From positions 12,359 to 76,358 of the IMG/VR virus record IMGVR_UViG_3300046457_000118: 64,000 nt of DNA. One strand, given 5' to 3'. Of the stretch, positions 45,164 through 62,590 are shown piece after piece. The notes under the pieces are model-generated. The model did no database searches. It was not told where the DNA came from and saw only the letters and a list, made by a program, of their open reading frames with translations. This DNA comes from a virus. The position numbers were made by a program, and so were the translations under genes. Positions within the stretch are counted from its first letter, which is position 1; the number at the start of each line of letters is the position of its first letter.

Positions 45164-45166
45164 TCC

Positions 45167-45361: not shown

Positions 45362-45369
45362 TTGCTGAC

Positions 45370-45685: not shown

Positions 45686-45718
45686 GAAGAAAGCCCCCTC
45701 ACGGGGGCTTTTCTTTTT
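45686..45718. terminator. Bidirectional terminator
   Basis: AAAGCCCCC-TCAC-GGGGGCTTT with flanking A- and T-runs, between convergent genes. Confidence 0.85.
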
Positions 45719-48700: not shown

Positions 48701-51700
48701 ACACGAAGCGCGACAGATAGTCCGTATTCGGCGTCAGGGCAAACAGGAAGTCATATTCATCCTGCGTCAGTCCAGTACCGATCTGATCCTTCAGCTTGTC
48801 ACGGGCTTCCTCGTACAGCTTGCCGAGTTCCTTGAAGGCCACGCTGGTCACGCCATCGGCTCCCGACAGGGCAGCACGCATGGTCACTTCCACCTGTTCC
48901 AGCACGAAGGCCACCTGCTCGTTACCTGCCAAGCCATGGGCCACCGCATCCAGAGCGAATGGTGCCGTGCCATTGGTCTGGGCATTGGCCCAGATCGAGG
49001 CGGCACCCAGCGTACTGGTGCTCATGGCATCCTGACCGAAGGCACCGTAGATCGGGCTGAAGGTCTCGATCAGGCTGCTCAACAAGCCACGCAGACGGAC
49101 ATCATCTTGAGGCGACAATGGGTTGTTGGCGTTCTGCCCCAGTTCATTGTAGATGTCTGCCGTGGTATAACTCTGGGCCGGAGTAGCGTGCATCAAGGTC
49201 AGTTTGACACGCTCTGCCTCATTACCACGTGACTGTTCCATCAACCCAGAAACGTTGTAAATGAGGATCGACAATGCACGTTCTTTCGTGTCGGTGGCAT
49301 CACCAAAGAACAACTTGGTCATGGCATTGGCAAACACTTTCATGGCCTTGACCAAACGATTGCCACTAGTGCGAGACACCGGATACACGATCTGTTTCAG
49401 GAACTCTTGGAACTCCGGATTCGCCATGCCCCATGCGGTGAACTCCTGCACATCCGTCAAAGCACCCTTAAACTTTTCGGCACCCGGATAGTTTTTCACG
49501 TAGGTCAGTAGGTCTTCAAGGTCTTTGATAATAGATTTACTAGCCTTCGAGACAGGTGAATCAATCTCATGCGAGATGGCAGCATGCACCAATTCATGCA
49601 GCACAGTCTCAATGTTCATACCACTCGATGCAAAACCATCAGATTTTATGTACACATGGCTTTGCTGCCCTTTAGGTGCCAGTACGAACCAGCCGCATGC
49701 CTCTGAGTTTGGTAAGGAAAGCACTTCACCGGGATTGGTAGTAGGCGTAATCAGGTTGACGAACAGGTCTTCCGGCAGCACCTTGGCAAGCTGTTTTGCC
49801 AGCATATTGTTGACGCCAGTAGTGTTCTTGACCATATAGTCGATGGCTTCTTTGCCTGACAACGTGGCCTTGTCAGCGAACATTTTTTGTACCACCGGGT
49901 CCACTGCTCGCCACGTCGATACACCAAGACGACCGAACGGCGTCAAGCCAGTGCCATCAAGCGAATTCATGATGCGAGCAGTCTGCTCGATCTTCTCTGC
50001 CGTGTCAGGCTTACCTACCACAGCAGCTACTGCTGCCATGTCGGCGCCCTTGGTTTCCATGGTCGGAGCGGCATCAGCCTCTTCCATCGGTGCCGTCTCC
50101 ACTGCCTTGCCATCAGCGAAGTCACGGATGACATCGAATGCCTTGTGGGCTTCGTCGCTCATCTCGGTGACCACCGACTTGATATCGGCAAGTGCCTGTT
50201 CACGGACCGACTTCGGTACCTGATACTGGCCACTCTCCCATGTGTACTGGTCCACCACGCCAATCTTGGCGATGGTCGAGAGACGCACACGATCTGCATT
50301 CACGGCATTGGCGATGGCCATGGCACGGATACCGTTGACAGCTTCGGCCACCGACATATCCTGACGCTCCTTGGCTTTGACCTTGTTGCGTGCACCAACG
50401 ACTTCCTTCCACTGGGCCACGATGGCATTCACATCGGCCTTGTCGATTTCGCCGTCTTGGATACGCTTGGCCAGATCGGCAGCGATCCGCTCCACCATGT
50501 TCAGGGCTTCACGGGCAGGCGAGAACTTCGACAGTGCCTGTAACGTCGCACGGTTGATGGCCCCAGCTGCATTCGCCACTTCCAACACACCATGACCGAT
50601 CTCGTCGTGCACGTTCAGGGCTTCCTGCACCGAGGCCAGAGCCGAGTGCATCAGGAACGAGTCGAGCGAGTGGATCAGGTAAGGCGTACCTGCCACACCC
50701 GGACTCGTCTCCACACGGTCCATGCCCTTCATGTGCAGGTTCTTGCTGGAACTGAAGGAGCCATCAGGATTGGCCTTGCCATTGACCACAGGCGAAGCCA
50801 AGGTGATCTGCGATTGCAGCATCGGGTCATCCGAAAGCTGGGTTTCCTGCTTGCCCATGTAGATACCATTGGCCAGATCACCACCCATCGAGTAGGCGGT
50901 ATGGACCACTGGCAGCATGCCCGTCAGCTTCTCGCGCACAGCGTCTTCTTGTGCTGAGGTCAGGTCGGTACGGGGCTTCTTCTGCCCCTTGCCCGTTTCT
51001 TCGGTACCTCCGGTCTGCTCACGCCATGCCAGATGATCCTCTGCGATCAGGTCTTGAATAGCCTTCTTGCGTGCTGCCTTGTAGGCCACTTCGTACATGG
51101 CAAAGCCTGCCTGCACCGTACGGTTCAGGTCACCACGGCGTTCGATGAAGGTAGCGAAGTAGGACTCCATGGCCTGCTTGACTGGCTCACCCATGATGCC
51201 TCGGAAGGCTGCACGCAGCAGTTCCTCGCCATCCTTGGAGATCGGATGGTTCATGAGTTCAGCAGCCTTGACGTTCGTGTCGAACGGCTGGATGTCACCC
51301 TGAGACTTCATCAACACATTCATGGCATTCACGAAGCCAGACACATCAGCAGGCTTGCCAGCGTGTTCTTCCTTGGCCAGCTTCTCGATCTTCTTGTAGA
51401 TGCTGTCGATGAACTTGTTCTCCATCGCCGTGATGGAACCCTTCAGCGACGAACCGAAGGCGAATGCCGTCAGTGGCGTCTTCACCAGATCACGACCTTC
51501 CTTGGTCACATCCTGATTGGCATCCTGTAGCGTGCCGAGGATCGACTGCATGGCATCGAACGGAGCATCCTTGGTGACGTGCTTCAGCAGGTAGGATGCC
51601 AAGTCCTGATACAAGTCCTTGCCCTTGGTGTCCTTGCGCCACTGGCTGTAGTGCTGTGGCTGTCCTTCTGCCGAACCATAGATACCACCACGGGCCATAC

Positions 51701-53807
51701 GCTCCATCAAGTCATTCGAGTTGGGAGCGGCACCCAGTGCCAGTTGGGTCAGGATCGGGCCATTGGTCTTGCCGTCCGCACCCACTAGCATGGTCACATC
51801 GATGTGATCCTTGTCGGCGTACATCAGCTTGGCATAGGCCACCAGTGCTTGCAGGGTCTGCATGCCTTCTGCACCGGCAGCGAACTCGGTGATAGCTTCC
51901 GTGTTGGCCCACTGGTTTGCACTCAGACCATTGTGGATGGCTTCGACTGCTGCACGCAGCTTCGCATCATCGTTCCACTTCTGGTTCAGCATTGCCACCG
52001 TATCGGCATTCGGCTGATCATCGGTCTTCAAATCTTTGTAGCCCAGTGCACCAGCAATGGCGACCTTCAGTGCATCGACATGTGCCTCGTTCTTCAGGTC
52101 CACTTTCTGGGTCCAGCTTGGACGAGCGAACATGTAGCGATGAATCTTCGATGCCTGCTGGTTCAGCGACTCGGTGACCACACCTACACGGAAGTTCTTC
52201 CACACCTCGTACTGCACATAGCGAGGCGTGGTGATGTCTGCATGCATGTCACCCACATCCTGTGCACCTAGCATGTCCAGCGCCAGATCAAGCTGATTGG
52301 CCAGTCCACGGCTCTTGGCTTCGACACCCTTCTTGTTCACCTCGTGCACGAAGTCGGTATCCACATTCCTGGCACCAGCGACCTTGAGCACGTTGTCACG
52401 GCCAAGCGCACCCATCAGGGACCACATGTCAGGGATCACCGTGTGCGGCACCTTCTGGGCCTCGTTGAGCACCTTGGCCAGCTTGGCAGGCACCTTCTGA
52501 CGCGTGTTCTGGGCATACTCCTGCCGGAACTTGGCAGGCTTGGTCGAGGCGATCACCGGCGTCTTCTCGGAACCGAACAGGGTATCTACGATGGCGTTCG
52601 TACCCTTGTTCGCATCCTTGTACTCGGTCAGCTTTTCACGGTCTGCAAACACGTACACCGTGTTCTTCTTCGGATCGATCGGTGCTCCGGCCACAGGTTC
52701 GAACAGGTCGTTGATCATCTTGGTATTGATGGGACGACGCTCTACCAGTCCCTCGGATGCCAGTGCCACCAGCATACGGGCACCCAGAGCCGTCTTGAGA
52801 CGGGGCAGCAGGTCTTGTGGGGCATTGCTGTCCACGGTCAAGCCAAGGGCTTGCAGGGCCATTTCGCCCATGTCAGCAGCAGCGGTGTCCTCGATGTTGG
52901 TCACACCATCCAGCAGGGTATCGACCTCATGGCCATAGGTCGCATCCTTGTCACGACCATGCATCTTGTTCAGTTGTTCCTTCGTCTTGCCGGTGCTGTT
53001 CGACTCGTTGACCAGCCAGTGATACATGCCATAGCTCATGGCCGTCAGCACGTTCTCATCGACCGATACCTTGCTGCCTTCCTTGGTCAGCATGTACTGC
53101 ATCATGTCACGCAGCTTGAAGGCATCCTGCTTGTCGTAGGTGGCAAGCTGCTCTGACAGCACACCGTTCCACACCTTGGCTTTATCGGCAAAGTGCTTGA
53201 TGGCTGCTTTCTGATTAGCCGCTCGATCCGGATCGCTGTCGTACTGGATGAAGTCAGACGGTGCAACGATCTTCTTACCAAGCCAAGTGGAAAGGAAGTT
53301 GCGTACAGCGATCAGGGGACGATGGCCACCAGTCGTCTCCACCTTGGCTTTCTGCTTGAAGAACTGGGCAATCGGATTCATCGCCGGATTGCTGAACAGT
53401 TCCTGCATCTTGGTGGTCGGCTCGACCGTCAGACGGGAAGCCATCACACTCAGAGTGCCATGGTCGGCCAGCACATCTTCATGGTGGGTCTGTTCGTTCC
53501 CCGCCGTCGCAGCCTCCGCAACGGGCGCAGGGTTCGCTTCGCTCACCGCTGCTGGTTGCTGCGCTGCTTCCGGCTTGGCTTTGGGTTGCAGGGGCTGGCC
53601 ACCGTCGGCTTCATACGCACTGCGGACTTGGGCAATCACATCCTGATGCTCTTGTTGCAGGGTTGCCAAGCGGTCCTGCACGGCCTGATACATGGCTGCT
53701 TCTGCCTCCAACCCGTTCTGCTTGTGCTGTTCAGCCACATGGCGCAATGCCTGATGGTGGATCTTCTGATGCAGGCCGAGGCTGACAACGCATTTACGAT
53801 AGCTCAT
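45717..53807 (-). CDS. Virion RNA polymerase, catalytic domain plus C-terminal domain (2696 aa; C-half of split vRNAP)
   Basis: Motif A ADGKTNGP (~51770), motif B RDLVKTPLTAFAFG (~51470), PGVAG, motif C NVHDE (~50610), HELVH in the CTD. Confidence 0.92.
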   Translation of the reverse strand: MSYRKCVVSLGLHQKIHHQALRHVAEQHKQNGLEAEAAMYQAVQDRLATLQQEHQDVIAQVRSAYEADGGQPLQPKAKPEAAQQPAAVSEANPAPVAEAATAGNEQTHHEDVLADHGTLSVMASRLTVEPTTKMQELFSNPAMNPIAQFFKQKAKVETTGGHRPLIAVRNFLSTWLGKKIVAPSDFIQYDSDPDRAANQKAAIKHFADKAKVWNGVLSEQLATYDKQDAFKLRDMMQYMLTKEGSKVSVDENVLTAMSYGMYHWLVNESNSTGKTKEQLNKMHGRDKDATYGHEVDTLLDGVTNIEDTAAADMGEMALQALGLTVDSNAPQDLLPRLKTALGARMLVALASEGLVERRPINTKMINDLFEPVAGAPIDPKKNTVYVFADREKLTEYKDANKGTNAIVDTLFGSEKTPVIASTKPAKFRQEYAQNTRQKVPAKLAKVLNEAQKVPHTVIPDMWSLMGALGRDNVLKVAGARNVDTDFVHEVNKKGVEAKSRGLANQLDLALDMLGAQDVGDMHADITTPRYVQYEVWKNFRVGVVTESLNQQASKIHRYMFARPSWTQKVDLKNEAHVDALKVAIAGALGYKDLKTDDQPNADTVAMLNQKWNDDAKLRAAVEAIHNGLSANQWANTEAITEFAAGAEGMQTLQALVAYAKLMYADKDHIDVTMLVGADGKTNGPILTQLALGAAPNSNDLMERMARGGIYGSAEGQPQHYSQWRKDTKGKDLYQDLASYLLKHVTKDAPFDAMQSILGTLQDANQDVTKEGRDLVKTPLTAFAFGSSLKGSITAMENKFIDSIYKKIEKLAKEEHAGKPADVSGFVNAMNVLMKSQGDIQPFDTNVKAAELMNHPISKDGEELLRAAFRGIMGEPVKQAMESYFATFIERRGDLNRTVQAGFAMYEVAYKAARKKAIQDLIAEDHLAWREQTGGTEETGKGQKKPRTDLTSAQEDAVREKLTGMLPVVHTAYSMGGDLANGIYMGKQETQLSDDPMLQSQITLASPVVNGKANPDGSFSSSKNLHMKGMDRVETSPGVAGTPYLIHSLDSFLMHSALASVQEALNVHDEIGHGVLEVANAAGAINRATLQALSKFSPAREALNMVERIAADLAKRIQDGEIDKADVNAIVAQWKEVVGARNKVKAKERQDMSVAEAVNGIRAMAIANAVNADRVRLSTIAKIGVVDQYTWESGQYQVPKSVREQALADIKSVVTEMSDEAHKAFDVIRDFADGKAVETAPMEEADAAPTMETKGADMAAVAAVVGKPDTAEKIEQTARIMNSLDGTGLTPFGRLGVSTWRAVDPVVQKMFADKATLSGKEAIDYMVKNTTGVNNMLAKQLAKVLPEDLFVNLITPTTNPGEVLSLPNSEACGWFVLAPKGQQSHVYIKSDGFASSGMNIETVLHELVHAAISHEIDSPVSKASKSIIKDLEDLLTYVKNYPGAEKFKGALTDVQEFTAWGMANPEFQEFLKQIVYPVSRTSGNRLVKAMKVFANAMTKLFFGDATDTKERALSILIYNVSGLMEQSRGNEAERVKLTLMHATPAQSYTTADIYNELGQNANNPLSPQDDVRLRGLLSSLIETFSPIYGAFGQDAMSTSTLGAASIWANAQTNGTAPFALDAVAHGLAGNEQVAFVLEQVEVTMRAALSGADGVTSVAFKELGKLYEEARDKLKDQIGTGLTQDEYDFLFALTPNTDYLSRFVSLGLVNPKINALLQFKTKLKSDEQFADTLLGKLNQMLQEALQWVVGRWTKTRMGEQADSKLDSLATQLVMIEAKRRARLNVEQSQTVNAIEGMLNSVAKGARNKVDEVANSKFFKEAKNGYLKMTGSLVSATVKERLDHVVQAYQDFSDQHFHYSNGMFANTINEIRGAHDGNRVFLHLLRMAKLFEGKRKDLIAGTSKVLIESFSDEGKNLTDDMKKAVSNVFLRTDMASLMSRYTDMKDLHALLNDQAKLSQAIVDVTQELATSPHQMYYVNAAKALGYKMVNGKARAANTMQNAHAIARLYGTTQAMPQDAMRFEPAIDHLASLYALHYSNADEKTTASELMAKEMARDEGNGVEMALKLHEKLQADSKERLFKDQEALMMKGYLPEVYNPYVELRLASKDELDDLRDQGFGQGMKLATAKADPEAGGNYLMARHGSGLQPYLTGSMSLTSMNTKGTTKHNGVLDFFSDQGLYNAEMMHQIGQNVADDVQRMFTHPIEPDKVTEEYLVPVINPQGDKVNYRYMMANDVKDNVLDRDNRFDKLMGTMAGSIYDKEGTPKQNRTVVETLYEQYRKEFNERPRSFIEVGPRSADPEMREIYRLLPESAKQTIREVWKSDAMQVRIDLLDMTFGYRKLSITDVLKKDREARKGWEKLMGDVLSFLGTGKMLSDHADPEDFKSREARAMVRLRTVEEMWQWLVKEAKDIVVVKNLSTLMGNMTSNISMLYGFGVPLTEIFRSHRIAFRGAIAYKRDSAELFALQTKLDTGTSGNVNEDKARVAKLKDALARNPMHELIQAGLMPTIVDDVEMDDDIYSYKSKFNKRTEQLTSWINPDVKSVANQLYMGHETYVYQLLSEAAQISDFLGRYTLYQHMTTKKKDPMSKEEAVSLASEAFIFYDVPTDRRTQYLNDMGFVRFTKYYLRIQKVLLALHRGNPGRALGLVALSHYFKHLPTVMDSSFYHRLGNNPLEAGVFTYPQAIGTLATYKAVTMPFN

Positions 53808-54195
53808 CTTGTGCGATTTCAAAAAGGAGTTGGAGGATTACCAGTTCTTCTTCTTCTTCGGAAACGTTGAAGACCGGAATTTCATATTTCTGTGTGTCAG
53901 CATTATAGTACTGCCTTACCGTAGGGTATCGACTCTTTCCGGGAGAAGAACCACCACTTTGCGGTACCGGTACAACCTGTCGGACAGGAGGGCCAATATC
54001 GAACTCGGCCCATGCCACATCGACACGGGTACCCAAGTAGGCCGTATCGAACACGGCCCAGGTGACATCCACCCGGACCGCTGCATTCGTGTCGAGTTCG
54101 GCCCACTCAATCTGGGCAATAGGCGTGACGCCAGACCGCGTATCCCCCGGTGCCTGTGTGTCAAAGGTTACCCAATTGACAGTGACCTGCATCAC
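53794..54195 (-). CDS. Cassette protein with four V-x-V-x-W-x-x-F-D repeats and an acidic/hydrophobic C-terminal helix
   Basis: Overlaps both neighbouring genes; ends EEEEELVILQLLFEI. Confidence 0.75.
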   Translation of the reverse strand: MMQVTVNWVTFDTQAPGDTRSGVTPIAQIEWAELDTNAAVRVDVTWAVFDTAYLGTRVDVAWAEFDIGPPVRQVVPVPQSGGSSPGKSRYPTVRQYYNADTQKYEIPVFNVSEEEEELVILQLLFEIAQDELS

Positions 54196-55826
54196 ACTGC
54201 CTCGAAGGTCAGGCGCAGGTCACTGTAGTCGGTGATGGCATCACACTGGTCCACGGACAGCACTTGCGTGAACACGGTCTGCACTGTAGGCAGCATGATG
54301 TGTTCCCATTGTGCGATCACGGTCATACCTTGCTTGAGCGTCACGATCAAGCCATTGCCCGTTACCGATCCAGCCTTGTAGCGCACCACCTGAGCAGTAC
54401 TGGTCTGCGGATCAACCACGTTGTTCAGCTTGACTTCACAGCTACCCGGTGCCGTGGTACTGATGCCGGTGCCACCATTCTGCTTCAAGCCAGCCGACAA
54501 GGAACTCTGTGCCGTGGTCCAGGCACCCGGATCGATGTCTCCGATAGGACGTGCATAGCGTGGATCAGGAGGCTGGGGCGTACTCGTGACGGTCGGTGCA
54601 TAGCCGGTGACACCTACGCTGTCGGTATCCGGCAGCAGCCAGTGATGGTCGGTACGTAGCAGGGAGGGTGCATAGCCTGCCAGTGCAATCCCTTCATAGA
54701 CAGGCTGTACCGTGACGTGCTGGGTCTGCGTGATGACGGGTGCGTAACCTACCAGCAGCACATCCTCGCTACCCTCCTGCACCATCTGGTTATTGGTTTG
54801 CGTGACGATGGGCGCATAGCCTTGCAGTCCCACCGTACTGCCATTAGGTAGCAGGAACTGGTGCAGTGTCTGGTTTACCGAAGGGGCATAACCTTGTACT
54901 GCCAGCGGTTCACCAGACGGTGACAGGAACTGGTGTGCCGTACGGTCCACGGTAGGTGCATACCCGGTCAAGCCAATCGCTTCCGATCCCGGTGACAGGA
55001 AGTTGTTGGCACTCTGGATGATGCTGGGCGTATTGCCGGTAACGAGGATACTGCCTTTGCCAGGAGCCACATTCGTGGGTGCCGTGGCCAGCATGTAGGC
55101 AATCGCAGCCGCAAGACTGTTGTTGACCGGAGCCTGCCACACTTGCCAGATGTTCCGGTACAGGGCGTATATCTCTGCCGCAGAGAGTGCCCGGTTGTAG
55201 ATCAGGTTTGCATAGGGAAGTGCGCCACCATTGGTGTTACCACCCGCCGCATCAGCCTCGTACATCGAGAAGCCATTGCTACCGATGGCCGTAGTCCCGG
55301 CCGCTATCGTACTGACGGCCACACCGTTCACATACAGCGTCTGGACGTTATTCGTCTTGTCCCATACACCGGCAATGAACATGACTTCACCGGATGCCGG
55401 AGCAGTCGGTGCAGTCCATGAATTGGTGGAAGTCGGGCCAGCAAACGCAATGCCGGTGTTGTTGTTAAAGGCATTGGTACCCAGTCCAAGGGACTGGGCA
55501 TTGACGTTGGTTGTGCGATAGCGAATCGCAAACTGTGCATCCGACAAGCTGACATTGTTGCGTCGAATGAGGCTGACAAACGTGACCGCGTTCAGGCCGG
55601 TCATCATGCCATTCGATGCGCTCGTGCTGGGCACGATGTCAGGATTAACCAGACCGCCCGTGGTATTACGGGTCATGTAGCGACCGGCAGGGCCAGCCGC
55701 ATGCGTCGGAATCTGATGACCCAGACGAGCCGAGATCAATCCATAGGCAAGCGGGTTGGCCTTGTTGATGGGTACGAGTTGCTGGGGCTGTTGCCGCAGC
55801 ACGCTCAAGGGCAGCGGCGCACCCAT
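54192..55826 (-). CDS. LamG/concanavalin-like fibre protein with seven 24-aa repeats
   Basis: FIAGVWD..LYVNG..IYNRALSAAEI; GYAP repeats. Confidence 0.8.
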   Translation of the reverse strand: MGAPLPLSVLRQQPQQLVPINKANPLAYGLISARLGHQIPTHAAGPAGRYMTRNTTGGLVNPDIVPSTSASNGMMTGLNAVTFVSLIRRNNVSLSDAQFAIRYRTTNVNAQSLGLGTNAFNNNTGIAFAGPTSTNSWTAPTAPASGEVMFIAGVWDKTNNVQTLYVNGVAVSTIAAGTTAIGSNGFSMYEADAAGGNTNGGALPYANLIYNRALSAAEIYALYRNIWQVWQAPVNNSLAAAIAYMLATAPTNVAPGKGSILVTGNTPSIIQSANNFLSPGSEAIGLTGYAPTVDRTAHQFLSPSGEPLAVQGYAPSVNQTLHQFLLPNGSTVGLQGYAPIVTQTNNQMVQEGSEDVLLVGYAPVITQTQHVTVQPVYEGIALAGYAPSLLRTDHHWLLPDTDSVGVTGYAPTVTSTPQPPDPRYARPIGDIDPGAWTTAQSSLSAGLKQNGGTGISTTAPGSCEVKLNNVVDPQTSTAQVVRYKAGSVTGNGLIVTLKQGMTVIAQWEHIMLPTVQTVFTQVLSVDQCDAITDYSDLRLTFEAV

Positions 55827-55827
55827 A

Positions 55828-56277
55828 TCAAGCCACCGTGTAGGAAACTTCCATCGTACGCAGCGTGCCAGCCGTGAAGGCTACGCCGCTATCGTTCTTC
55901 ACGACGAAACGTACCATCGGCGGCAGGATGCCACCGAATGCAGCGGCCACACTGAATGTGCGGTCCTGCGCACCTGCTGCCGTCTTCAGGGACAGCGTAC
56001 CCAGTTGTGTCAGGTTCGGTTCATCCGTGGCCGTAGTACCGGAACCCGGACCACTCTGCCACGTCGTACCACCATCGTAAGAAGCCTGTGCGAACAGGAC
56101 TGCTTGCTGATTACCGGCGGTCGTACCCGGCGTGATTGCCAGTTCGGCCAACAGGTCGCTCTGCTGGTTGACGTTGGAGTACTGTGCCGAGGTGACATAC
56201 GTGGCTGCGGCCAGTGTGGACAGACCCGTGACGGTCAGTGCAGCAGGAGCGGAGATGATTTGTTTTGCGGTCGCCAT
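55828..56277 (-). CDS. Beta-rich cassette protein (putative fibre component)
   Basis: 1-2 nt spacing; ASYDGGTTW, FVVKNDSG. Confidence 0.75.
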   Translation of the reverse strand: MATAKQIISAPAALTVTGLSTLAAATYVTSAQYSNVNQQSDLLAELAITPGTTAGNQQAVLFAQASYDGGTTWQSGPGSGTTATDEPNLTQLGTLSLKTAAGAQDRTFSVAAAFGGILPPMVRFVVKNDSGVAFTAGTLRTMEVSYTVA

Positions 56278-56279
56278 TA

Positions 56280-56711
56280 TCAGTTCCAGTTATTCATTAC
56301 GTCGAGCACGGTGACCGGTGCCAGTCCAAGGACTTGGGCACGGCTTGCTGGCTGGATGGCGAGGGCTTTCAACTCGTCGCCTTCACTTTGGTCGAGTACC
56401 TGCAATGCTACCAAGCCATTGATATTCGCCTTGGTCGCACCATCATTCACATTCAGGCCCGTCGAACTGTTCAAACGGTTCCATGCCACCAGTACCACCG
56501 CATCCTGTTGGGATGCCGCATACAGCTTGCGAATGATCGAGGGACCACTGGGGCATTCGGACAGGATGGTCAGTGCCGTGACCCAGCGTTCCTGTGCCAT
56601 GGTCGTAAGCTGGACATTCAGCAGATCGGCCACGATGCCAGGAGCATCCGGCAGGTACACGGCATAGCCCATGCCAGTAGGGTCTTGTCGGAGTTCTTCA
56701 ACGAGCGTCAT
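56280..56711 (-). CDS. Cassette protein
   Basis: ATGA overlap; ELRQDPTGMGYA...SRAQVLGL. Confidence 0.75.
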   Translation of the reverse strand: MTLVEELRQDPTGMGYAVYLPDAPGIVADLLNVQLTTMAQERWVTALTILSECPSGPSIIRKLYAASQQDAVVLVAWNRLNSSTGLNVNDGATKANINGLVALQVLDQSEGDELKALAIQPASRAQVLGLAPVTVLDVMNNWN

Positions 56712-56920
56712 GGTTTGTTCACCGGGTTCATGATGTTGTGGAGACAGTGGTCAGGCCAGAAGCGTGATAGCAACCAGCAAACCAAGGAGCAGAACCTGCA
56801 AGGTCTGCCTTCCTTGAGTTTGCGACCCATGTTGGACGACATGGTTTCCACGTCGCCTCCGAACACGGTATTGAGCCAGATATCCGAAGCCAGCCAGAAA
56901 TTAGCCAGATACCGTTTCAT
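56708..56920 (-). CDS. Small Cys-containing phage protein
   Basis: D.WLNTVFGGDVETMSS.MGR...C..C...DHC. Confidence 0.7.
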   Translation of the reverse strand: MKRYLANFWLASDIWLNTVFGGDVETMSSNMGRKLKEGRPCRFCSLVCWLLSRFWPDHCLHNIMNPVNKP

Positions 56921-56923
56921 GGA

Positions 56924-57400
56924 TCACGCCTTGGTGATGTTCAGGTAACCAGCCGCAGGCGTATTCACGTTCAGGTTGTTGCCTGCTGTGGTAGCCGGTA
57001 CGTCAGCAGGCGTAGCGTCACCGAGGAAGTGGCCCACCACCGGATTGACCTTGCCATTGAGCGTGCCGACGTAGTAAATGACACCACGACGCCATGCCGG
57101 AAGCGAGCCACCTGCTGCCGCCCACTGGACGTTATCGCAGGTGAACTTGATCACGCCAGCAGCCATCGACAGGGCCACATTGGTCAGTGCCTTGCCACCA
57201 GCCGTATAGCCATTGCCCGCAGCGACCTCACTGCCCGAGAAGTCAGCCCAGACTTCATTGCCGGTATCCGAGTTGTCCGGTGCCATGGCAGAGGTTACGA
57301 GTGCCATCTTGAAGTTGGCGGCATTCGCTGCCAGCAAGCCAGTGGCATTGAACATGTTGAGGAATGCTTTGTTGGGTACGACGAGAGTTCCAGCAGCCAT
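56924..57400 (-). CDS. Fibre/adaptor-type virion protein
   Basis: FKMALVTS...EVAAGNGYTAGGKAL...DNVQW...VIY, a pattern typical of small phage fibre proteins. Confidence 0.75.
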   Translation of the reverse strand: MAAGTLVVPNKAFLNMFNATGLLAANAANFKMALVTSAMAPDNSDTGNEVWADFSGSEVAAGNGYTAGGKALTNVALSMAAGVIKFTCDNVQWAAAGGSLPAWRRGVIYYVGTLNGKVNPVVGHFLGDATPADVPATTAGNNLNVNTPAAGYLNITKA

Positions 57401-57421
57401 GGATGGCCCCTTTCAAGTGAA

Positions 57422-57706
57422 TTATCGAATTACTTCCACGATGACCTTGATCATCTTGCCTTCAGCGTCACGAACGATGTCCGCTTCCAGACGCTTGGTT
57501 TGTACCGGTTGAGGCATATCCTGTATGGCCTTGACCGCTTTATTCATGGTTGAAGCCATGGAAACCACCTGATTCAACGATGCCTGCATCATGCGCAGGT
57601 AGGCCGGATCAATGGCGGCTGTCTCAGCCTGTTCCTTCTCTTCCGATTCAGGCTTCAGCAGTTTTTTCTTGGCTTCATCCAGTTCAGCCCGCGTCATTGT
57701 TCGCAT
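57422..57706 (-). CDS. Small cassette protein ending IVRDAEGKMIKV
   Basis: Starts 1 nt after the stop of the vRNAP N-half. Confidence 0.7.
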   Translation of the reverse strand: MRTMTRAELDEAKKKLLKPESEEKEQAETAAIDPAYLRMMQASLNQVVSMASTMNKAVKAIQDMPQPVQTKRLEADIVRDAEGKMIKVIVEVIR

Positions 57707-57707
57707 A

Positions 57708-60700
57708 TCAGCCCTTCATACAGGAAGCCAGTGCTTCCAACTTGGCGATCTCGTCCCGGATAGCCTTGAGCACCTTGTGAGCAGGTTTGGGTTGACCATC
57801 GTGATCGAACCTCTTTTCATCGGATACCCAGACATCCTTATGTGCTACCGGTGTATTCCAATATGACTTTGGAATCCCTTCTCCGGTATCAACGTTGGAT
57901 TCTTTAGGAGAACTATTGCTGGATGGTACCACACCGGCATCTTGCTTAGAAGCATTGTCGGTAGATGTGGCCGTAGCCGATTGAGCAACCGTGGCCTGAG
58001 CGGCGTCAGCCGCGATTGGGCCGGAAGGTTGCGATTGAGGCGAGGCAGCAGGGGAGTTACGTTGATCGTATTCCTGTTTCCACGCCTGGAACTCGCGCTT
58101 ACCTTCTACCGTATCTTGCGAAGGAATCCCCAGCGTAGCCCGCACCTGCACGATGAATGATGCGTGTTCATCTTGCGGAATCACCTTCATCTGATCTTTC
58201 AAAGCCAGACGCACTTGGGTTGCAGTCTTGCCTTGCGCAAACTGGTCTTCAATCTGTTTGGTCAAGCCAAGGGTATCCGACTGGTCGCGGGCAGCTTGTG
58301 CATTGATATTGGAGAAGCCATCAGCCTTGGGACCGACTTGTACACGAGGAATACTGTTGGGTGTAGTTGTCGAAGTGTCAGCAGAAATATTTTCTGCCTT
58401 ACTCTTAACTTCTTGAGAGATTTGAGTGGGTTTTACAACAGTCTGAACAGGTTTATCGTTCAGACGTGTCTTGCCCTCTCCGGTTTTCTTAGAAGATATG
58501 TTTTGGGACGTAGGTTGTGCAGTGGGATGAGCGGACTGTACCACAGCATTCCCGAAACGCAAAGCCACCGCAGCCGACAGGGAGGCATGTGCTGCCCTCA
58601 GTGCCTTGGCTTCATTCTGGATTTCCTTGATCAGCTTGCCAGAATTTTCGTGCACGTTGACGGCACCGTTCTCTGCACGCTGCTTGTCGTTCAGTCGCTT
58701 GCCTGTATTCACCTGCCACTTACCATCCTGCTTGACGATCTGGTCTCCCACGTCAGCCTTGGCAATGGCCCGCAGCTTTTCCATGTGGCTATCGGCAAAC
58801 GCCCCCAGCAGGGACAGGTTACGCTCGGCACTCTGCTGGTTACCCGACGCCACCGCAGCACCAATGCGAGTACGGTACTGCTCGATGCCGATATTACCGT
58901 TGGGCTTCTTCTGGCCGAACAGCACTTCCTGCGACACATCCGACTGCTTCTTGACTTCGTTCTCTGCCGTGCGTGCTTCACTGAACTTGCGCAGCACATC
59001 ACGCTGTTCCGTACTCAGACCATTCTCGGTGTTGTTCACCAGATTCTTGATGGCACTCGGATCAATCGAGTCCGGTGCGGTCATGGACAGGTTCAGCAGC
59101 ACATCACCTGCCTTCGATGCCACCTTGGTGTCAGTCGAGTTGGCAGCTTCGAGGTGAGTGTCCACTTCAGTCTGGGACGGAGTGGGATTGGCCAGCCGTA
59201 CAAGGTCATGATGTACCTCACGAGCATCGGCCAACTGACGTGTGACTTCACTGAGTCGGTTCTGACGGGCCAACACAGCTTCTTTGCCGGTCAGTCCTTC
59301 CAGTTCAGTACGCATTGCTTTCAGATGATCACCAAACATGGCATGGTCATCCGGTGTTGCATCGGGATCGTTCAGCAAGCTTTCGGTGTTGGTGATCTCT
59401 TCTTTCAGAACCTTGATACGTTCAGGTGCATTGGCTTGCTTCTGTTCTATCTGCTGCTTACGTTCTTCAAGCTGCGAAATGACTTCACCCGACTTCTGCA
59501 AGTGTTCCTGCACTTGTTCAGGCTGTACACCGTCCTGCTTGCTCATTTCATGGAGCACGGCCACTGCCTTGGCAGGGCTATAGTCAGGACTGTTCGTATC
59601 GAGGAAGGTTTCGGGAGCCTTGTCTGCCACCGCTTGCTGCACCTTGGCTTGCTCCGTTGCCGCTTGGGTTTCCGCCTGTGCCCGTTCAGCCACATGTTCT
59701 GGCGTTGCTTGCAGGGCTTCAGCCGTGCCATGCAGACCACCGGACAGGCCAGCACCTGCGACACCACCCACCACAGCACCTTGGAAGATGTCCAGAGCCG
59801 ATGCAGGCTTCTGGTTGATCTCCCCCTCTGCCCACGTCTGGTAGCCCTCGGTCGCCGTTTCTTCTGCGCCACCTTCAGCAGCGGCAATGGCCGTACGCTT
59901 CAGGGATTGCAGCAGGCCCGCCTTGGTCGCCTGTGCACCTGCCTCGGCAGCACCCGCAACACCTTCTGTGGCCTTGGCGATCTTGCCCAGACCGCCCACG
60001 GCATGCTGGAACATGTCACCACCATGTTCGGCAGCAGCCAGCGAGGCCGACAGCAGAGCCATGCGGGTACGTTCATTCTCTGGAGGCATGGCGCCATTGT
60101 GCTGCTTGGCATACTCTTCCAGACCGGTACGGTAGTTGTCGGCTGCATAGCCCACATTGGAAGCCAACATACCTGCCTTGCCCACAGCACCAAACTCACC
60201 CAACAGCAGTTGGGGAGCATTCTCGATGATGTATTCACGGGTTGCCGAAGGGTTGGTGACCACGGCTTCACCAGCATTCATCAGCAAACCAGCGATACCG
60301 GCAACGACCTGACTCGGCTTGCCATCCTTCCAGCCCGACTTGACCTTGTTCCATTCGTTCTCGAAACCATCACCAAGAGCCGTGTTCAACTCATTGCGAT
60401 TGGTTTGTTCGACGATATTCGACAGGTCGAAGGTGTTACGGACATCCTTGGCCTGACTACGAAGGTAGGCTGCATCGCTTGGATTGGAGGTCAACGAGGC
60501 GAAGGTATTGGCTGGCAGCGACAGGATGTCACCAGCCAGACGAGAGCCGCCAGATACCAGCGAAGCCACGTCATTGACACGGTTACTGAGGAAGGAACCA
60601 CCATCCAGTCCCAGTTGCCCAGACCACGAAGTATCCTGTGGTGCCTGCTTCGCTGCCAGTGCAGCCTTCTTGTCGGCAGATGCCTGAGCAAGTTCCACTT

Positions 60701-60761
60701 GCTTGCGTTCGATGTCGGCACTCCGTACCGGACGGAATGCATCGAAGTTGAAGTTGGACAT
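57708..60761 (-). CDS. Virion RNA polymerase N-terminal domain as a separate gene (1017 aa)
   Basis: CAGGAA RBS; EETATEGYQT..EG, VSQEVLFG...GIEQYR, FADSHMEK, LIKEIQNEA; follows the gp51-like gene as N4 gp50 does. Confidence 0.82.
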   Translation of the reverse strand: MSNFNFDAFRPVRSADIERKQVELAQASADKKAALAAKQAPQDTSWSGQLGLDGGSFLSNRVNDVASLVSGGSRLAGDILSLPANTFASLTSNPSDAAYLRSQAKDVRNTFDLSNIVEQTNRNELNTALGDGFENEWNKVKSGWKDGKPSQVVAGIAGLLMNAGEAVVTNPSATREYIIENAPQLLLGEFGAVGKAGMLASNVGYAADNYRTGLEEYAKQHNGAMPPENERTRMALLSASLAAAEHGGDMFQHAVGGLGKIAKATEGVAGAAEAGAQATKAGLLQSLKRTAIAAAEGGAEETATEGYQTWAEGEINQKPASALDIFQGAVVGGVAGAGLSGGLHGTAEALQATPEHVAERAQAETQAATEQAKVQQAVADKAPETFLDTNSPDYSPAKAVAVLHEMSKQDGVQPEQVQEHLQKSGEVISQLEERKQQIEQKQANAPERIKVLKEEITNTESLLNDPDATPDDHAMFGDHLKAMRTELEGLTGKEAVLARQNRLSEVTRQLADAREVHHDLVRLANPTPSQTEVDTHLEAANSTDTKVASKAGDVLLNLSMTAPDSIDPSAIKNLVNNTENGLSTEQRDVLRKFSEARTAENEVKKQSDVSQEVLFGQKKPNGNIGIEQYRTRIGAAVASGNQQSAERNLSLLGAFADSHMEKLRAIAKADVGDQIVKQDGKWQVNTGKRLNDKQRAENGAVNVHENSGKLIKEIQNEAKALRAAHASLSAAVALRFGNAVVQSAHPTAQPTSQNISSKKTGEGKTRLNDKPVQTVVKPTQISQEVKSKAENISADTSTTTPNSIPRVQVGPKADGFSNINAQAARDQSDTLGLTKQIEDQFAQGKTATQVRLALKDQMKVIPQDEHASFIVQVRATLGIPSQDTVEGKREFQAWKQEYDQRNSPAASPQSQPSGPIAADAAQATVAQSATATSTDNASKQDAGVVPSSNSSPKESNVDTGEGIPKSYWNTPVAHKDVWVSDEKRFDHDGQPKPAHKVLKAIRDEIAKLEALASCMKG

Positions 60762-60780
60762 GAAGTTTCCTGAGTGAATG

Positions 60781-60837
60781 TATTTTGGAATTATATACAG
60801 GAAAGGGTGGACCAACGACTGTCAGCCCACCCTTTTG
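60781..60837 (-). promoter_or_regulatory. Terminator-like hairpin followed by a TATAAT -10 box (late promoter candidate)
   Basis: Minus strand GGGTGGGCTGAC-AGTC-GTTGGTCCACCC TTTCCTGTA TATAAT. Confidence 0.5.
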
Positions 60838-60853: not shown

Positions 60854-62587
60854 TTAGTTACCCAGCAGCTTCTTCAGTCGTTCACGTTCGGCCATGACCT
60901 TGGCCAGTTCGGCATTCGTGTCAGCGATATCGATGCTGTCCCGGACACTCCCTCGCTTCTGGTAAATCTGAAGGTTGGATTGCAGATCAGCGATCTTGTT
61001 ATCGAGCCGACTTGCAGCTTGCTGTTGTTGGGCCATACGAGCCTTGTCATTGAGAGCAGACTGACGGTCCATCATGGCCTGATTACGCTTGTTGGCTTCG
61101 GCAGCACGAGCCATGAACTCTGCTTTGGCAGCAGCCTTTGCATCTGCTTCCTGCTGGACCGACATCTGACGTGCTTCGAGGTTGGCCGCTTCACGGGCAG
61201 CAAACATGTCAGCACTGGTCGGACCCTGACCGGCAGGCGAATTGCGTGCCTGATTCATCAGGTCATTCAGACGCTGTTGGGCAGGTGGCAGTACAGGGGC
61301 AGCAGGAGCCTGTACGGGTGCCGCAGTAGCCGAAGGAGCACCCACAGCAGGAGCAGCGGGCTGGGCAGGATTGTTCAGCGACTGTGCATCACCGAACGGA
61401 TTAGCTACCAAGGTACCGGCACCTACGGAACGTACAGCAGGCGTACTTGCACCCGTACCCGGATCACCCAAGCCAAGACCTCCAGTCGTCAAGCCATCAC
61501 GGCGTACCTGATTGGCAGCGATCTTGGCGCTCAAGGTCTTACGAAGTTCCTCCGCGTATTTTGCATCCTCGGCACCGGTGCCATTCGCAGCCAATTTAGC
61601 GGCATTACGAGCAGCAGCAGAACGCTCAAGAATACCCAGAGTCCAGCTCTGGTCAATACCCTTGATACTGGCAATGACTGCGTTGGTGGTGATACCAGGA
61701 TTCTTCTTTAGGATCTCAGATGCAGCGATACGTGCCTGTTTCTGATCTGCCGGGTCTTTGATGCTGGCGACAGCATCATCGATCACTGCTTGACCCACCA
61801 GCGAATCTGCCTTGTTCTTGAAGGTATTGGCGTACTCGGTACGATACTTGGCATCACGCGCTTCCAAGTGGTCATCCAGCGCCAACATGGCATTAGCTTC
61901 ATTCACCGAAGCGTTACGACCCGCAATCTTGACCTGTTCTTGATTGGATCGTGCATTCATGAAACCAATCGAAGAATCATTGGCCATGTGCGTGATGCTG
62001 GCCGCGTTCATCTGACCTTTCCAGTCATGCTCTTGGTCAGCATGTGCACGGTCGATCAACTGACGTTGGGCATCGTTACCGTTACGGTACAGGTCGGCCT
62101 TGACACGCAGGTCCATGGAAGGCAGTTCCTTCATGGCCGCATCGATCTGTGTCTTGTCACCGGAAGCCAACATGCCAGCGATACGGTCACGGTCCTTGGC
62201 CTGCGTCTCATCCAGCATCGCATGGTTGTAGGCGATGTCCTTGATGGCACGGTCTTGCAGCACATTGCCACGCTGGTCTGCGAAGTTACGGATGGCCTGC
62301 TGGTCGATACCGGCACCATAGCTGTCCAGTGTGGCACCGAGGTTCTGCTTGGCCTGCTTGAAGGCATCCACGCTGTCGGCACTCATCAGGCGGTTCATCA
62401 CCTCATTGGTGGCATTGGTACGTCCAGCTTGGAAGTTGGAGTCTTGGATCGCACTACGTTGGTCCAGCACGTTATGGATAGCACCGAAACCCATGTCGAA
62501 TGCCCGTGCTGCGGCATCCAATGGGCGACTGGCTTCGGAGAGCGAGGAACCGGGCACATTGTCCCAGCGAATAGGTTGGTAACCCAT
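60854..62587 (-). CDS. Virion ejection/structural protein (N4 gp51-like position)
   Basis: PIRWDNV N-terminus, Ala/Gln-rich, Cys-free; syntenic position. Confidence 0.75.
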   Translation of the reverse strand: MGYQPIRWDNVPGSSLSEASRPLDAAARAFDMGFGAIHNVLDQRSAIQDSNFQAGRTNATNEVMNRLMSADSVDAFKQAKQNLGATLDSYGAGIDQQAIRNFADQRGNVLQDRAIKDIAYNHAMLDETQAKDRDRIAGMLASGDKTQIDAAMKELPSMDLRVKADLYRNGNDAQRQLIDRAHADQEHDWKGQMNAASITHMANDSSIGFMNARSNQEQVKIAGRNASVNEANAMLALDDHLEARDAKYRTEYANTFKNKADSLVGQAVIDDAVASIKDPADQKQARIAASEILKKNPGITTNAVIASIKGIDQSWTLGILERSAAARNAAKLAANGTGAEDAKYAEELRKTLSAKIAANQVRRDGLTTGGLGLGDPGTGASTPAVRSVGAGTLVANPFGDAQSLNNPAQPAAPAVGAPSATAAPVQAPAAPVLPPAQQRLNDLMNQARNSPAGQGPTSADMFAAREAANLEARQMSVQQEADAKAAAKAEFMARAAEANKRNQAMMDRQSALNDKARMAQQQQAASRLDNKIADLQSNLQIYQKRGSVRDSIDIADTNAELAKVMAERERLKKLLGN

Positions 62588-62590
62588 ATA

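What the first reader, a model, noticed from the sequence alone, without database searches (positions are those of the whole stretch)
53600..57900. Cys-tipped terminal modules may re-join the split halves (docking/disulfide clasp)
Established: N4 vRNAP has no cysteine. Seen: across ~3700 aa I find only three Cys, and two sit at the new termini. One is 4th from the end of the N-half (AIRDEIAKLEALASCMKG, codon 57720-57722). The other is residue 6 of the C-half (MSYRKC, codon 53790-53792). Each lies in a ~65-aa helical-looking module set off from the vRNAP body by an Ala/Pro/Gln/Ser-rich linker. Inference: the inserted unit is [C-cap]-7 genes-[N-cap], and the caps pair, possibly by disulfide, to restore the interrupted protein. 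That would be a split-intein-like trick without splicing, letting a cassette sit inside an essential giant gene.
Basis: partly seen in the sequence, partly recalled or inferred. Interest (0 to 1): 0.85.

Follow-up and report, generated by a model that had tools for sequence, protein, structure and literature searches.

The report
Cysteine-tipped clasps rejoin split phage polymerase
An uncultured N4-like phage has its giant injected RNA polymerase cut into two genes by a seven-gene insert, and the two new protein ends carry matched, portable docking modules, each tipped with a lone conserved cysteine, that most likely clip the halves back together end to end.

Summary
The two polymerase halves (1035 and 2696 aa) hold three cysteines, and two sit 4 residues from the new C-end and 6 from the new N-end.

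The closest relative (59% identical) is unsplit. Against it, the window has gained exactly [N-cap]-7 genes-[C-cap] inside the flexible linker between the N-terminal domain and the polymerase.

Both caps are conserved families. All 43 N-cap proteins have a cysteine 3-6 residues from the C-end, and 40 have no cysteine outside the caps. All 16 C-caps seen (10 loci, 6 database proteins) have Cys6 or Cys7.

The caps occur only at termini and were not detected in 129 unsplit polymerases (119 have no cysteine). They also flank variable cassettes in unrelated giant "polyvalent" phage proteins. One phage encodes a 172-aa protein that is only C-cap, linker and N-cap.

A complex prediction passed its controls and puts the two cysteines in contact.

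A published cryo-EM structure (cyanophage A4, gp27 Cys1715-gp26 Cys5) shows such a disulfide. I found no sequence similarity between its termini and these caps.

This scan has noted similar cysteine-tipped junctions on other DNA (crAss-like phages).

The docking is well supported. The disulfide is inferred.

The parts
57708..60761 (-). vRNAP N-half gene: N-terminal (ejection/membrane) domain, an extra linker domain, a low-complexity linker and the N-cap
   Evidence: phrog_2206 positions 135-878, E 5.9e-59. 54.5% identical to residues 1-788 of the unsplit P0002. The database copy P0001 starts at the ATG at 60761.
57897..58058 (-). Ala/Pro/Gln/Ser-rich linker remnant upstream of the N-cap (N-half residues 920-973)
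   Evidence: Its first part matches the contiguous linker of the unsplit P0002 by eye. It maps to the N4 low-complexity linker, res. 907-1006 (PMC13434306).
57711..57896 (-). N-cap: 62-aa C-terminal docking module (probably a beta-hairpin plus an amphipathic helix) ending in CMKG; Cys codon 57720-57722
   Evidence: Alignment A1 has invariant A39, I50, L53, C59, M60 and G62. The HMM hits only at C-termini. It forms the interface in the predicted complex.
57422..57706 (-). Cassette gene 1 (94 aa). It starts 1 nt after the N-half stop; function unknown
   Evidence: TGAtATG. A small ORF starts 1-4 nt after the N-cap stop in L003, L008, L009, L010, L014 and L017, but not in L016 or L022. Its similarity to the window's gene is weak.
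56924..57400 (-). Cassette gene 2 (158 aa), phrog_644, unknown; probably a virion surface protein
   Evidence: 49-56% identical to the L014 cassette protein, which carries an extra stretch matching tail-fibre and virion-structural PHROG families.
56708..56920 (-). Cassette gene 3 (70 aa, 4 Cys), phrog_3342, unknown
   Evidence: 62% and 58% identical to ORFs in the L014 and L008 cassettes.
56280..56711 (-). Cassette gene 4 (143 aa), unknown
   Evidence: 40% and 31% identical to ORFs in the L009 and L014 cassettes.
55828..56277 (-). Cassette gene 5 (149 aa), unknown
   Evidence: ORF only. ORFs of similar size sit at the same position in L014 and L009.
54192..55826 (-). Cassette gene 6 (544 aa), with a concanavalin-A-like lectin domain; candidate fibre or receptor-binding protein
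   Evidence: Pfam Laminin_G_3, E 2.8e-8. Homologues lie in the L014, L010, L017 and L009 cassettes.
53794..54195 (-). Cassette gene 7 (133 aa, internal repeats); it overlaps the C-half start by 14 nt
   Evidence: Homologues precede the C-cap in L017, L010, L009, L014 and L043.
53598..53807 (-). C-cap: 70-aa N-terminal helical docking module starting MSYRKC; Cys codon 53790-53792
   Evidence: Alignment A2 has invariant M1, C6 and A25. The HMM hits only at residue 1 of proteins. It forms the interface in the predicted complex.
53484..53597 (-). Linker remnant after the C-cap (C-half residues 71-108)
   Evidence: Matches the second half of the contiguous P0002 linker, including the ANPAPVAE motif.
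45717..53807 (-). vRNAP C-half gene: C-cap, linker, RNA polymerase domain and C-terminal domain
   Evidence: phrog_2206 positions 794-3397, E 0. Pfam vRNAP_dom_2. 48% identical to P0002 residues 827-3496.

Best explanation
The window's virion RNA polymerase was cut in two by a portable unit, [N-cap]-cargo genes-[C-cap], inserted into the flexible low-complexity linker between the ejection/membrane N-terminal domain and the polymerase.

The two caps are a cognate head-to-tail docking pair. The hairpin and C-terminal helix of the N-cap pack onto the helical C-cap. This places Cys1032 (4th from the C-end) against Cys6 of the C-half.

Inferred steps:
- In the reducing cytoplasm the halves associate non-covalently. 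This lets the N-half be packaged with the C-half, whose C-terminal domain carries the encapsidation function in N4 (recalled from the N4 literature, not checked here).
- After lysis the adjacent thiols oxidise to a disulfide.
- The bond lies within a few residues of both termini, so the two chains form a nearly linear thread. That thread can be pulled through the narrow tail and ejectosome channel, N-terminal domain first.
- In the new host's reducing cytoplasm the bond may open again.

The rest of these giant ejected proteins is kept free of cysteine, presumably so that no wrong cross-link can block ejection.
For: Shown:
(a) The unit is an insertion. The sister protein P0002 (59% identical, 3497 aa) is unsplit. 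Its linker is contiguous where the window has cap-7 genes-cap.
(b) Both cysteines are invariant and sit at the termini: alignments A1 and A2. Across 43 N-cap proteins (42,707 aa) there are 48 Cys, and only 4 lie outside caps. The Cys is always 3-6 residues from the C-end. Five C-cap giants of 1439-1952 aa have a single Cys, at position 6.
(c) Of 129 unsplit vRNAPs, 119 have 0 Cys and 10 have 1. None has a cap.
(d) Co-occurrence: an N-cap is always followed by a C-cap ORF, and the counts are equal in five genomes.
(e) The same caps flank variable cassettes in unrelated polyvalent proteins carrying InPase, SNF2/ResIII, methylase, RadC and ART domains. The window's cassette is syntenic with that of L014.
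(f) Connector-only proteins exist, made of C-cap, Pro/Ala linker and N-cap: 172 aa in L017 and 165 aa in P0161. They sit between two cassettes, giving a chain A-connector-B.
(g) Predicted complex: the model supports binding but does not show it. The score was 0.73, against 0.00 for the best of 3 controls. That mark was reached by 58 of 80 solved complexes and 2 of 110 mismatched pairs; these counts hold only roughly, because my own alignments were used. The runs agree in at least 87% of contacts and the partner pLDDT is at least 81. N-cap residue 59 (Cys1032) touches C-cap residue 6 (Cys6). No PDB sequence relative exists, so a pass from memory is unlikely.
(h) AlphaFold2 folds the natural connector at pLDDT 90.6 and pTM 0.74. 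Structural matches span both caps.
(i) Precedent: in the cyanophage A4 virion, the gp27 C-terminal helix docks in gp26 and Cys1715-Cys5 form a disulfide (PMC12002296). Each of those proteins has that one cysteine only.
(j) The N4 N-terminal domain is joined to the polymerase only by a ~100-aa low-complexity linker (PMC13434306).
Against: There is no experimental evidence for this phage, which is uncultured.

The complex score is a model's own confidence.

A disulfide cannot form in the cytoplasm, so covalent linkage would have to arise in the released virion. That timing is inferred.

A single buried Cys on each side could be conserved for packing alone.

For split vRNAPs other than the window, only the N-halves were recovered (P0005, P0028, P0049, P0067, P0074, P0096). 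Within vRNAPs, cap co-occurrence therefore rests on this one genome.

The N4 N-terminal domain is only loosely connected to the polymerase, so a tether may not be strictly required.
Confidence: 0.7

Rival explanations
1. The caps dock non-covalently only. The two cysteines are conserved as small hydrophobic core residues, or they jointly bind a metal ion, perhaps across two heterodimers, and never form a disulfide.
For: Phage proteins are made and assembled in a reducing cytoplasm. The predicted interface is large, with 92-99 contacts, and might suffice alone. The window's C-cap is His-rich near Cys6 (H12, H16, H17, H22).
Against: The histidines are not conserved, and only one Cys per cap is invariant. 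A core residue would be expected to vary to Ala, Ser or Val at 15-43% identity, yet the cap Cys is present in every cap sequence seen. The near-total purge of other cysteines from ~42,700 residues points to thiol chemistry, not packing. A4 shows a real disulfide at the equivalent place.
Confidence: 0.17
2. The caps do not bind each other. Each is a separate address tag that attaches its half to another virion part (portal, gp51-like protein, the small cassette protein). They co-occur only because they travel on one piece of DNA.
For: A small ORF starts right after the N-cap stop in six of eight other loci and could be a partner. In N4 the N-terminal domain associates with gp51 (PMC13434306).
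Against: The cap pair scored 0.73 against 0.00 for controls, with the cysteines in contact (see the counts under the best explanation). Connector-only proteins with one cap of each kind make sense as bridges, not as address tags. L016 and L022 lack the small ORF but keep both caps. The gp51/52/53-like proteins of the window have no cysteine to pair with.
Confidence: 0.08
3. The split is a tolerated accident. The N-terminal domain and the polymerase work as independent proteins, and the terminal modules are leftovers of the donor phage's genes with no role in the recipient.
For: The N4 N-terminal domain is only loosely tethered to the polymerase. The unit clearly came by horizontal transfer.
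Against: The split state appears in 7 separate vRNAP lineages, each time with the Cys-bearing cap intact and no other Cys in the N-half. A useless tail would decay.
Confidence: 0.04
4. The split is an assembly chimera, or the halves are rejoined at the RNA or protein level by an intron, an intein or ribosomal bypass.
For: The genome comes from a metagenome.
Against: A separately assembled 43-kb Logan contig spans the stretch with 0 differences, and the same N-half is on two contigs. There is no Rfam hit, so no intron. There is no intein or Hint domain in Pfam. The 4-kb insert holds seven intact, coupled genes. The same architecture is seen in ten other loci.
Confidence: 0.01

Closest known systems
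Cyanopodophage A4 (Anabaena phage A-4L) ejection proteins gp27 and gp26: gp27 C-terminal helix docked in gp26 with a Cys1715-Cys5 disulfide in the pre-ejectosome (cryo-EM; PNAS 2025, PMC12002296)
   Same: Two giant virion ejection proteins are encoded in order. The upstream one has its only Cys 3 residues from the C-end, and the downstream one has its only Cys at position 5. A C-terminal helix docks on the N-terminal helical region of the next protein. This is the same logic and near-identical geometry as Cys-4 and Cys6 here.
   Different: In A4 the genes are adjacent and are not described as halves of one ancestral protein. No cassette lies between them, and no portability or RNA polymerase is involved. 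The paper reports the bond as a structural detail, not as a general rule.
Aeromonas phage Aeh1 NrdA-a / mobE / NrdA-b: an essential gene split by a mobile endonuclease gene, with insertion-derived C- and N-terminal tails needed for assembly (Crona et al., NAR 2011, PMC3045599)
   Same: An insertion fragments an essential gene. New tails absent from unsplit homologues appear at the break and act as protein-interaction modules instead of splicing.
   Different: The Aeh1 insert is a single homing endonuclease gene. Its abstract describes unique tails needed to assemble the (NrdA-a/NrdA-b)2 tetramer, and it mentions neither a tail family recurring in other host proteins nor cysteines. Here the caps are a conserved, portable family. 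The cargo is 0-8 structural-looking genes (or a TnpB-like gene in L016), and no endonuclease lies in the window's insert.
Split inteins (e.g. DnaE) and 'fractured genes' (PMC2677866)
   Same: The two halves of a protein are encoded apart and rejoined after translation by matched terminal modules.
   Different: There is no Hint/intein domain. The cysteines sit at the free termini, not at the extein-intein junctions, so no splicing chemistry is possible and the modules would stay in the product.
Docking domains of modular polyketide and non-ribosomal peptide synthases (own knowledge, not tested)
   Same: Short C-terminal and N-terminal helical modules set the order of successive giant polypeptides, head to tail.
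   Different: Unrelated proteins and purpose, with no terminal cysteine pair. This is a resemblance of principle only.
Cysteine-tipped junctions of giant cargo proteins in crAss-like phages
   Same: Near cysteine-free giant injected proteins with one Cys at each end that faces the next protein. Some junctions are carried by portable cassettes.
   Different: Different phage group and different cap sequences; a sequence look-up found no look-alike. Those notes were not checked here beyond the A4 paper they pointed to.

Membership tests
N4-like virion RNA polymerase (Schitoviridae gp50) | Homology over the N-terminal domain, polymerase domain and C-terminal domain | tested here: met
   phrog_2206 positions 135-878 (N-half) and 794-3397 (C-half). 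Pfam vRNAP_dom_2 above its cut-off. 29-31% identity to LUZ7 vRNAP over both halves.
N4-like virion RNA polymerase (Schitoviridae gp50) | A single polypeptide of ~3400-3700 aa | tested here: not met
   Two ORFs of 1035 and 2696 aa lie 3.9 kb apart. 129 of the best 150 relatives are single chains of over 3000 aa.
A4 gp27-gp26 type head-to-tail disulfide between ejection proteins | A lone Cys within a few residues of the C-end of the upstream protein and of the N-end of the downstream protein | tested here: met
   C1032 of 1035 and C6. A4: C1715 of 1717 and C5, each the only Cys in its protein.
A4 gp27-gp26 type head-to-tail disulfide between ejection proteins | The C-terminal helix of the upstream protein docks on the N-terminal helical part of the downstream protein | tested here: met
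   Prediction only. Score 0.73 against 0.00 for the best of 3 controls; the mark was reached by 58 of 80 solved complexes and 2 of 110 mismatched pairs (roughly, as my own alignments were used). Runs agree in at least 87% of contacts and partner pLDDT is at least 81.
A4 gp27-gp26 type head-to-tail disulfide between ejection proteins | A disulfide bond present in the virion | not testable with these tools
   Needs virions: non-reducing gels, mass spectrometry or cryo-EM.
A4 gp27-gp26 type head-to-tail disulfide between ejection proteins | Sequence homology of the terminal modules | tested here: not met
   hhalign probability 0.3% and 0.6%.
Split intein | Hint-domain blocks, a nucleophile at the first intein residue, and terminal Asn plus a +1 Cys/Ser/Thr | tested here: not met
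   No intein family in Pfam at E<=0.01. The only cysteines are 4 from the C-end and 6 from the N-end.
Aeh1 NrdA-type split by a mobile element with insertion-derived tails | Tails absent from unsplit homologues | tested here: met
   Cap HMMs have no significant hit in 129 unsplit vRNAPs. The P0002 linker is contiguous.
Aeh1 NrdA-type split by a mobile element with insertion-derived tails | The insert is a homing endonuclease gene | tested here: not met
   No nuclease family in the seven ORFs. L016 has a TnpB-like ORF between its caps, judged by eye only.
Group I/II intron or other RNA-level rejoining | A structured intron RNA at the junctions | tested here: not met
   No Rfam match at E<=1 in 53000-58500.

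The most novel reading that the evidence does not exclude
The cap pair is a portable 'cut-and-clasp' kit. It is a horizontally mobile DNA unit that can open any flexible linker of a giant injected phage protein and park cargo genes there (fibre-like kits, a TnpB-like gene). It then restores the protein as a redox-switchable thread. The thread would be disulfide-locked in the virion, so that the pieces leave in order through the tail. It would be reducible in the host cytoplasm, which would free the polymerase from its membrane-anchored leader. The kit moves between unrelated phage families (N4-like vRNAP and polyvalent-protein podophages). It would explain why giant ejected proteins in general are purged of cysteine.
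Probability: 0.4. Interest if true: 0.9.

Novelty: new variant of a known kind. Interest (0 to 1): 0.78.

Why it matters
N4-type virion RNA polymerase is the textbook single-chain giant, and a natural two-piece version cut in the NTD-polymerase linker has several uses.

- It tests directly whether the N-terminal domain only needs to be tethered to the polymerase.
- It offers a way to ask how a 3500-aa protein is threaded through a tail about 35 A wide. A bond placed 4 and 6 residues from the chain ends keeps the thread linear.
- It extends a single structural observation (the A4 gp27-gp26 disulfide) towards a possible rule for injected phage proteins: no cysteine except at the ends that must be joined.
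- The caps are small (about 60 and 70 aa), orthogonal-looking and apparently self-sufficient. That makes them candidates for protein-engineering tools, for example ordered and reversible head-to-tail coupling.
- The unit shows how cargo genes can sit inside an essential gene without an intron or an intein.

Tried and rejected
- **Nucleotide search:** blastn of 53000-58500 against 50,697 GenBank phages found no match.
- **Related loci:** The search for related loci with the N-half and with P0049 in IMG/VR found none.
- **N-half protein search:** The search for homologous proteins at near length returned only the N-half itself.
- The contigs of the other split vRNAPs (P0005/P0192, P0028, P0049, P0067, P0074, P0096) and of P0002 could not be fetched. 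Their C-halves and cassettes remain unseen.
- **Caps in GenBank phages:** tblastn of the L014 caps found no match at E<=0.01.
- **False pattern hits:** the DNA pattern scans also returned short-ORF chance hits and an unrelated membrane-protein family ending in GCMKG. These were discarded.
- **Intron, intein, transcription signals:** no Rfam match and no Pfam intein. Promoter- and terminator-like sites inside the block are no more frequent than in shuffles.
- **Homology to A4:** hhalign found none to the A4 termini.
- **Solved structures:** no PDB sequence relative. Foldseek found no PDB match at E<=0.001. VIA-align gave only generic helical-bundle matches, Z<=7.
- **Cassette function:** PHROGs on cassette proteins of L043, L022 and L014 returned almost nothing with a known function. 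'Fibre kit' therefore stays a weak inference from one LamG domain and matches to tail-fibre and virion-structural families.
- **Expression:** no RNA holder was listed among sequencing runs.
- **Earlier notes:** a sequence look-up of a cap (from L014) in this scan's earlier notes found nothing.
- **Metal clasp:** considered and set aside, because no second invariant ligand exists.
- **Lipobox or CaaX-type lipidation of ...CMKG:** considered and set aside. The residues before the Cys vary (K, G, A, S, N, D). The motif is C-terminal, with no signal peptide.

Full report
**What is in the window.**
- The window is part of a 76,358-bp IMG/VR virus record, estimated complete.
- On the minus strand lie a 1035-aa ORF (57708-60815), seven tightly packed ORFs of 94, 158, 70, 143, 149, 544 and 133 aa, and then a 2696-aa ORF (45717-53807).
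- The first ORF matches positions 135-878 of the PHROG virion-RNA-polymerase profile, and the last matches positions 794-3397. Pfam finds vRNAP_dom_2 in the last ORF.
- Upstream are gp51/52/53-sized ORFs without cysteine.
- The gene junctions are coupled. The N-half stop and the next start read TGAtATG, and the last cassette gene overlaps the C-half ATG by 14 nt.
- Promoter-like and terminator-like sites are not enriched. Base composition in 2-kb bins (0.55-0.58) is like the rest of the genome.
- A separately built Logan contig of 43 kb from a rhizosphere metagenome spans 53400-58100 without a difference. It may come from the source sample.

**The observation.**
- The two halves hold three cysteines in 3731 residues: C1032 of the N-half (codon 57720-57722, 4th from the end), C6 of the C-half (codon 53790-53792) and C1371.
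- Where the window has C1371, the closest relative P0002 has another residue (by eye).
- N4 vRNAP has no cysteine, nor does LUZ7 vRNAP. Of 129 full-length relatives (mean 3642 aa), 119 have none and 10 have one.
- Non-virion proteins of the same phage have ordinary cysteine counts.

**It is an insertion into the domain linker.**
- The best relative in 1.8 billion representative proteins, P0002, is 59% identical and is a single chain of 3497 aa.
- N-half residues 19-810 align with P0002 1-788, and C-half residues 76-2695 align with P0002 827-3496.
- By eye, the Ala/Pro/Gln-rich linker of P0002 is contiguous. Its first part recurs just before the window's N-cap, and its second part (with the motif ANPAPVAE) recurs just after the C-cap.
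- So, relative to the sister, the window has gained exactly [62-aa N-cap]-7 genes-[70-aa C-cap].
- Mapped through P0002 onto N4, the site falls in or next to the ~100-aa low-complexity linker (res. 907-1006). That linker joins the lipid-binding N-terminal domain to the polymerase (PMC13434306).

**The caps are conserved families with invariant cysteines.**
- Other short vRNAP N-halves in the database (P0005, P0028, P0049, P0067, P0074, and P0096 with a variant ending) end in the same motif, I..L[ENK].[LIF]..CM[KG]G.
- A degenerate DNA pattern for this ending found true copies in IMG/VR and in metagenomes: L003, L004/L043, L008, L009/L024, L010, L014, L016, L017, L020 and L022. It also returned chance hits that I discarded.
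- In every locus with enough downstream sequence, a giant ORF follows that begins M-x-x-x-x-C (Cys6; Cys7 in L003 and L016) and aligns with the window's C-cap.
- Alignment A1 (11 N-caps) has invariant A39, I50, L53, C59, M60 and G62. Alignment A2 (10 C-caps) has invariant M1, C6 and A25. Identity to the window's caps is 15-43%.
- Profile searches recovered 37 N-cap proteins, the window's own among them (42 others once the six further split vRNAP N-halves are added), and 5 C-cap giants.
- Across the 43 N-cap proteins (42,707 residues) there are 48 cysteines, and only 4 lie outside caps. The cap cysteine is always 3-6 residues from the C-end, and 4th in 31 of them.
- The C-cap giants of 1439-1952 aa have one cysteine each, at position 6.
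- HMMs of the caps hit only the extreme C-terminus or residue 1, and give no significant hit in the 129 unsplit vRNAPs.

**The unit is portable.**
- In the other loci the flanking giants are not polymerases but 'polyvalent' proteins. Their domains include InPase, ResIII/SNF2 and Strawberry-notch helicase, methyltransferase, RadC-JAB and ART-PolyVal. Some database members carry SLT or DNA-methylase domains.
- RadC lies before the N-cap in P0164 but after the C-cap in L010 and L014, so the cut sites differ.
- The cargo between the caps varies:
  - one ~90-aa gene in L003;
  - a reverse-strand TnpB-like ORF in L016;
  - two large ORFs in L022;
  - two kinds of multi-gene cassette elsewhere.
- The window's cassette is syntenic with that of L014. 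It shares homologues of genes 2, 3, 4, 6 and 7 with L014, L009, L010, L017 and L008 at 31-62% identity, although the flanking giants are unrelated.
- On a tree of vRNAP N-terminal domains (136 rows, FastTree), the seven split forms need seven changes. Each sits beside unsplit relatives, and the window pairs with P0002 at 100% local support.
- In P0049 the ANPAPVAE-like motif lies before the N-cap, while in the window it lies after the C-cap. The insertion points therefore differ.
- Repeated insertion is the parsimonious reading. The tree cannot formally distinguish gain from loss.

**Evidence that the caps pair.**
- N-cap and C-cap counts are equal in five genomes: window 1:1, L017's record 2:2, and L014's, L009's and L016's records 1:1 each.
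- In L017's complete genome, a 172-aa protein consists only of a C-cap, a Pro/Ala/Glu linker and an N-cap. It lies between two cassettes, giving the order giant A, connector, giant B. P0161 (165 aa) is a second such connector. Such a protein makes sense only as a bridge.
- The complex prediction with A1 and A2 supports binding but does not show it:
  - score 0.73, against 0.00 for the best of 3 controls;
  - the mark was reached by 58 of 80 solved complexes and 2 of 110 mismatched pairs (counts hold only roughly, because my own alignments were used);
  - the runs agree in at least 87% of contacts, and partner pLDDT is at least 81;
  - among the lowest-error contacts is N-cap residue 59 (Cys1032) with C-cap residue 6 (Cys6).
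- Neither cap has a sequence relative in the PDB, so the pass is unlikely to be recall of a solved complex.
- AlphaFold2 folds the natural connector at mean pLDDT 90.6 and pTM 0.74. It shows three helices in the C-cap, and a short helix, a beta-hairpin and a long C-terminal helix in the N-cap. Structural matches, all generic helical bundles, span both caps, so the two ends are packed together in that model too.

**What is known.**
- In the A-4L record, gp27 (1717 aa) and gp26 (1114 aa) each have exactly that one cysteine.
- The logic and geometry are the same as here, but hhalign finds no similarity between the termini.
- The Aeh1 nrdA split is the published precedent for insertion-derived tails that reassemble a fragmented protein (PMC3045599).
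- I found no paper describing a split Schitoviridae vRNAP or these caps. The library is incomplete.
- This scan has flagged analogous cysteine-tipped junctions in crAss-like phages. I did not re-test those notes.

**Mechanism.**
- Shown: the insertion, the cap families, the invariant terminal cysteines, the cysteine purge, co-occurrence, portability and the connector proteins.
- Predicted: the docked complex with adjacent cysteines.
- Inferred:
  - non-covalent docking in the cytoplasm brings the N-half into the capsid with the C-half;
  - oxidation after lysis locks the pair;
  - the near-terminal position of the bond keeps the joined chains threadable;
  - the bond may be reduced in the next host.
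- The cassette's role (a fibre or surface kit) rests only on a LamG domain in gene 6 and on matches of the L014 homologue of gene 2 to tail-fibre and virion-structural families. It is a weak inference.

**Limits.**
- The protein searches covered proteins up to 2000 aa for the cap profiles, so fused internal caps in longer proteins are not excluded outside the 129 vRNAPs tested.
- All binding evidence is computational.

Noticed in passing
L016:1492-2862 (minus strand of the locus): Between the N-cap stop and the C-cap start of this polyvalent-protein phage lies only a reverse-strand 456-aa ORF. By eye it looks like an IS200/IS605-type TnpB (OrfB) with a C-terminal zinc-ribbon motif. The inter-cap gap seems to be a landing pad for mobile DNA.
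   Followed up: partly
L017:1511-2026 (minus strand); also protein P0161: Connector-only proteins of 172 and 165 aa, made of C-cap, Pro/Ala linker and N-cap, with one Cys in each cap. In L017's complete 61.9-kb genome the connector sits between two cassettes, giving a three-piece chain.
   Followed up: yes
G004 (record of L016) 44756-46582: The N-half of this polyvalent protein matches positions 60-616 of the vRNAP profile (E 1.2e-18). This is the N4-type N-terminal ejection domain, here followed by an InPase domain instead of a polymerase. The N-terminal domain may be a general leader for different injected cargos.
   Followed up: partly
window 58059-58385 (minus strand; N-half residues 811-919): An extra ~109-aa folded-looking segment sits in the linker of the N-half. 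It is absent from the closest unsplit relative P0002. Other relatives have different small inserts at this place.
   Followed up: no
window 53400-55737: In run X2 this part (C-cap, gene 7, gene 6) is broken into seven or more short Logan contigs at high depth. The adjoining 55708-58100 lies on one 14.9-kb contig. This suggests strain-level variation in the fibre-like genes and the C-cap region.
   Followed up: no
window 56708-56920 (minus strand): The 70-aa cassette protein has 4 cysteines and is 58-62% identical to ORFs in the L014 and L008 cassettes (phrog_3342, unknown function). It is unusually conserved for so small a protein.
   Followed up: partly
proteins P0132 (994 aa), P0014 (820 aa), P0018 (950 aa): Further short vRNAP N-terminal-domain proteins end without a cap and without any cysteine. 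They may be contig-end or frameshift fragments, or a different kind of split. Their contigs could not be fetched.
   Followed up: no
window 60854-63974 (minus strand): The three ORFs upstream of the N-half are 577, 183 and at least 279 aa, gp51/52/53-like by size and position. They contain no cysteine at all, like the polymerase body.
   Followed up: partly
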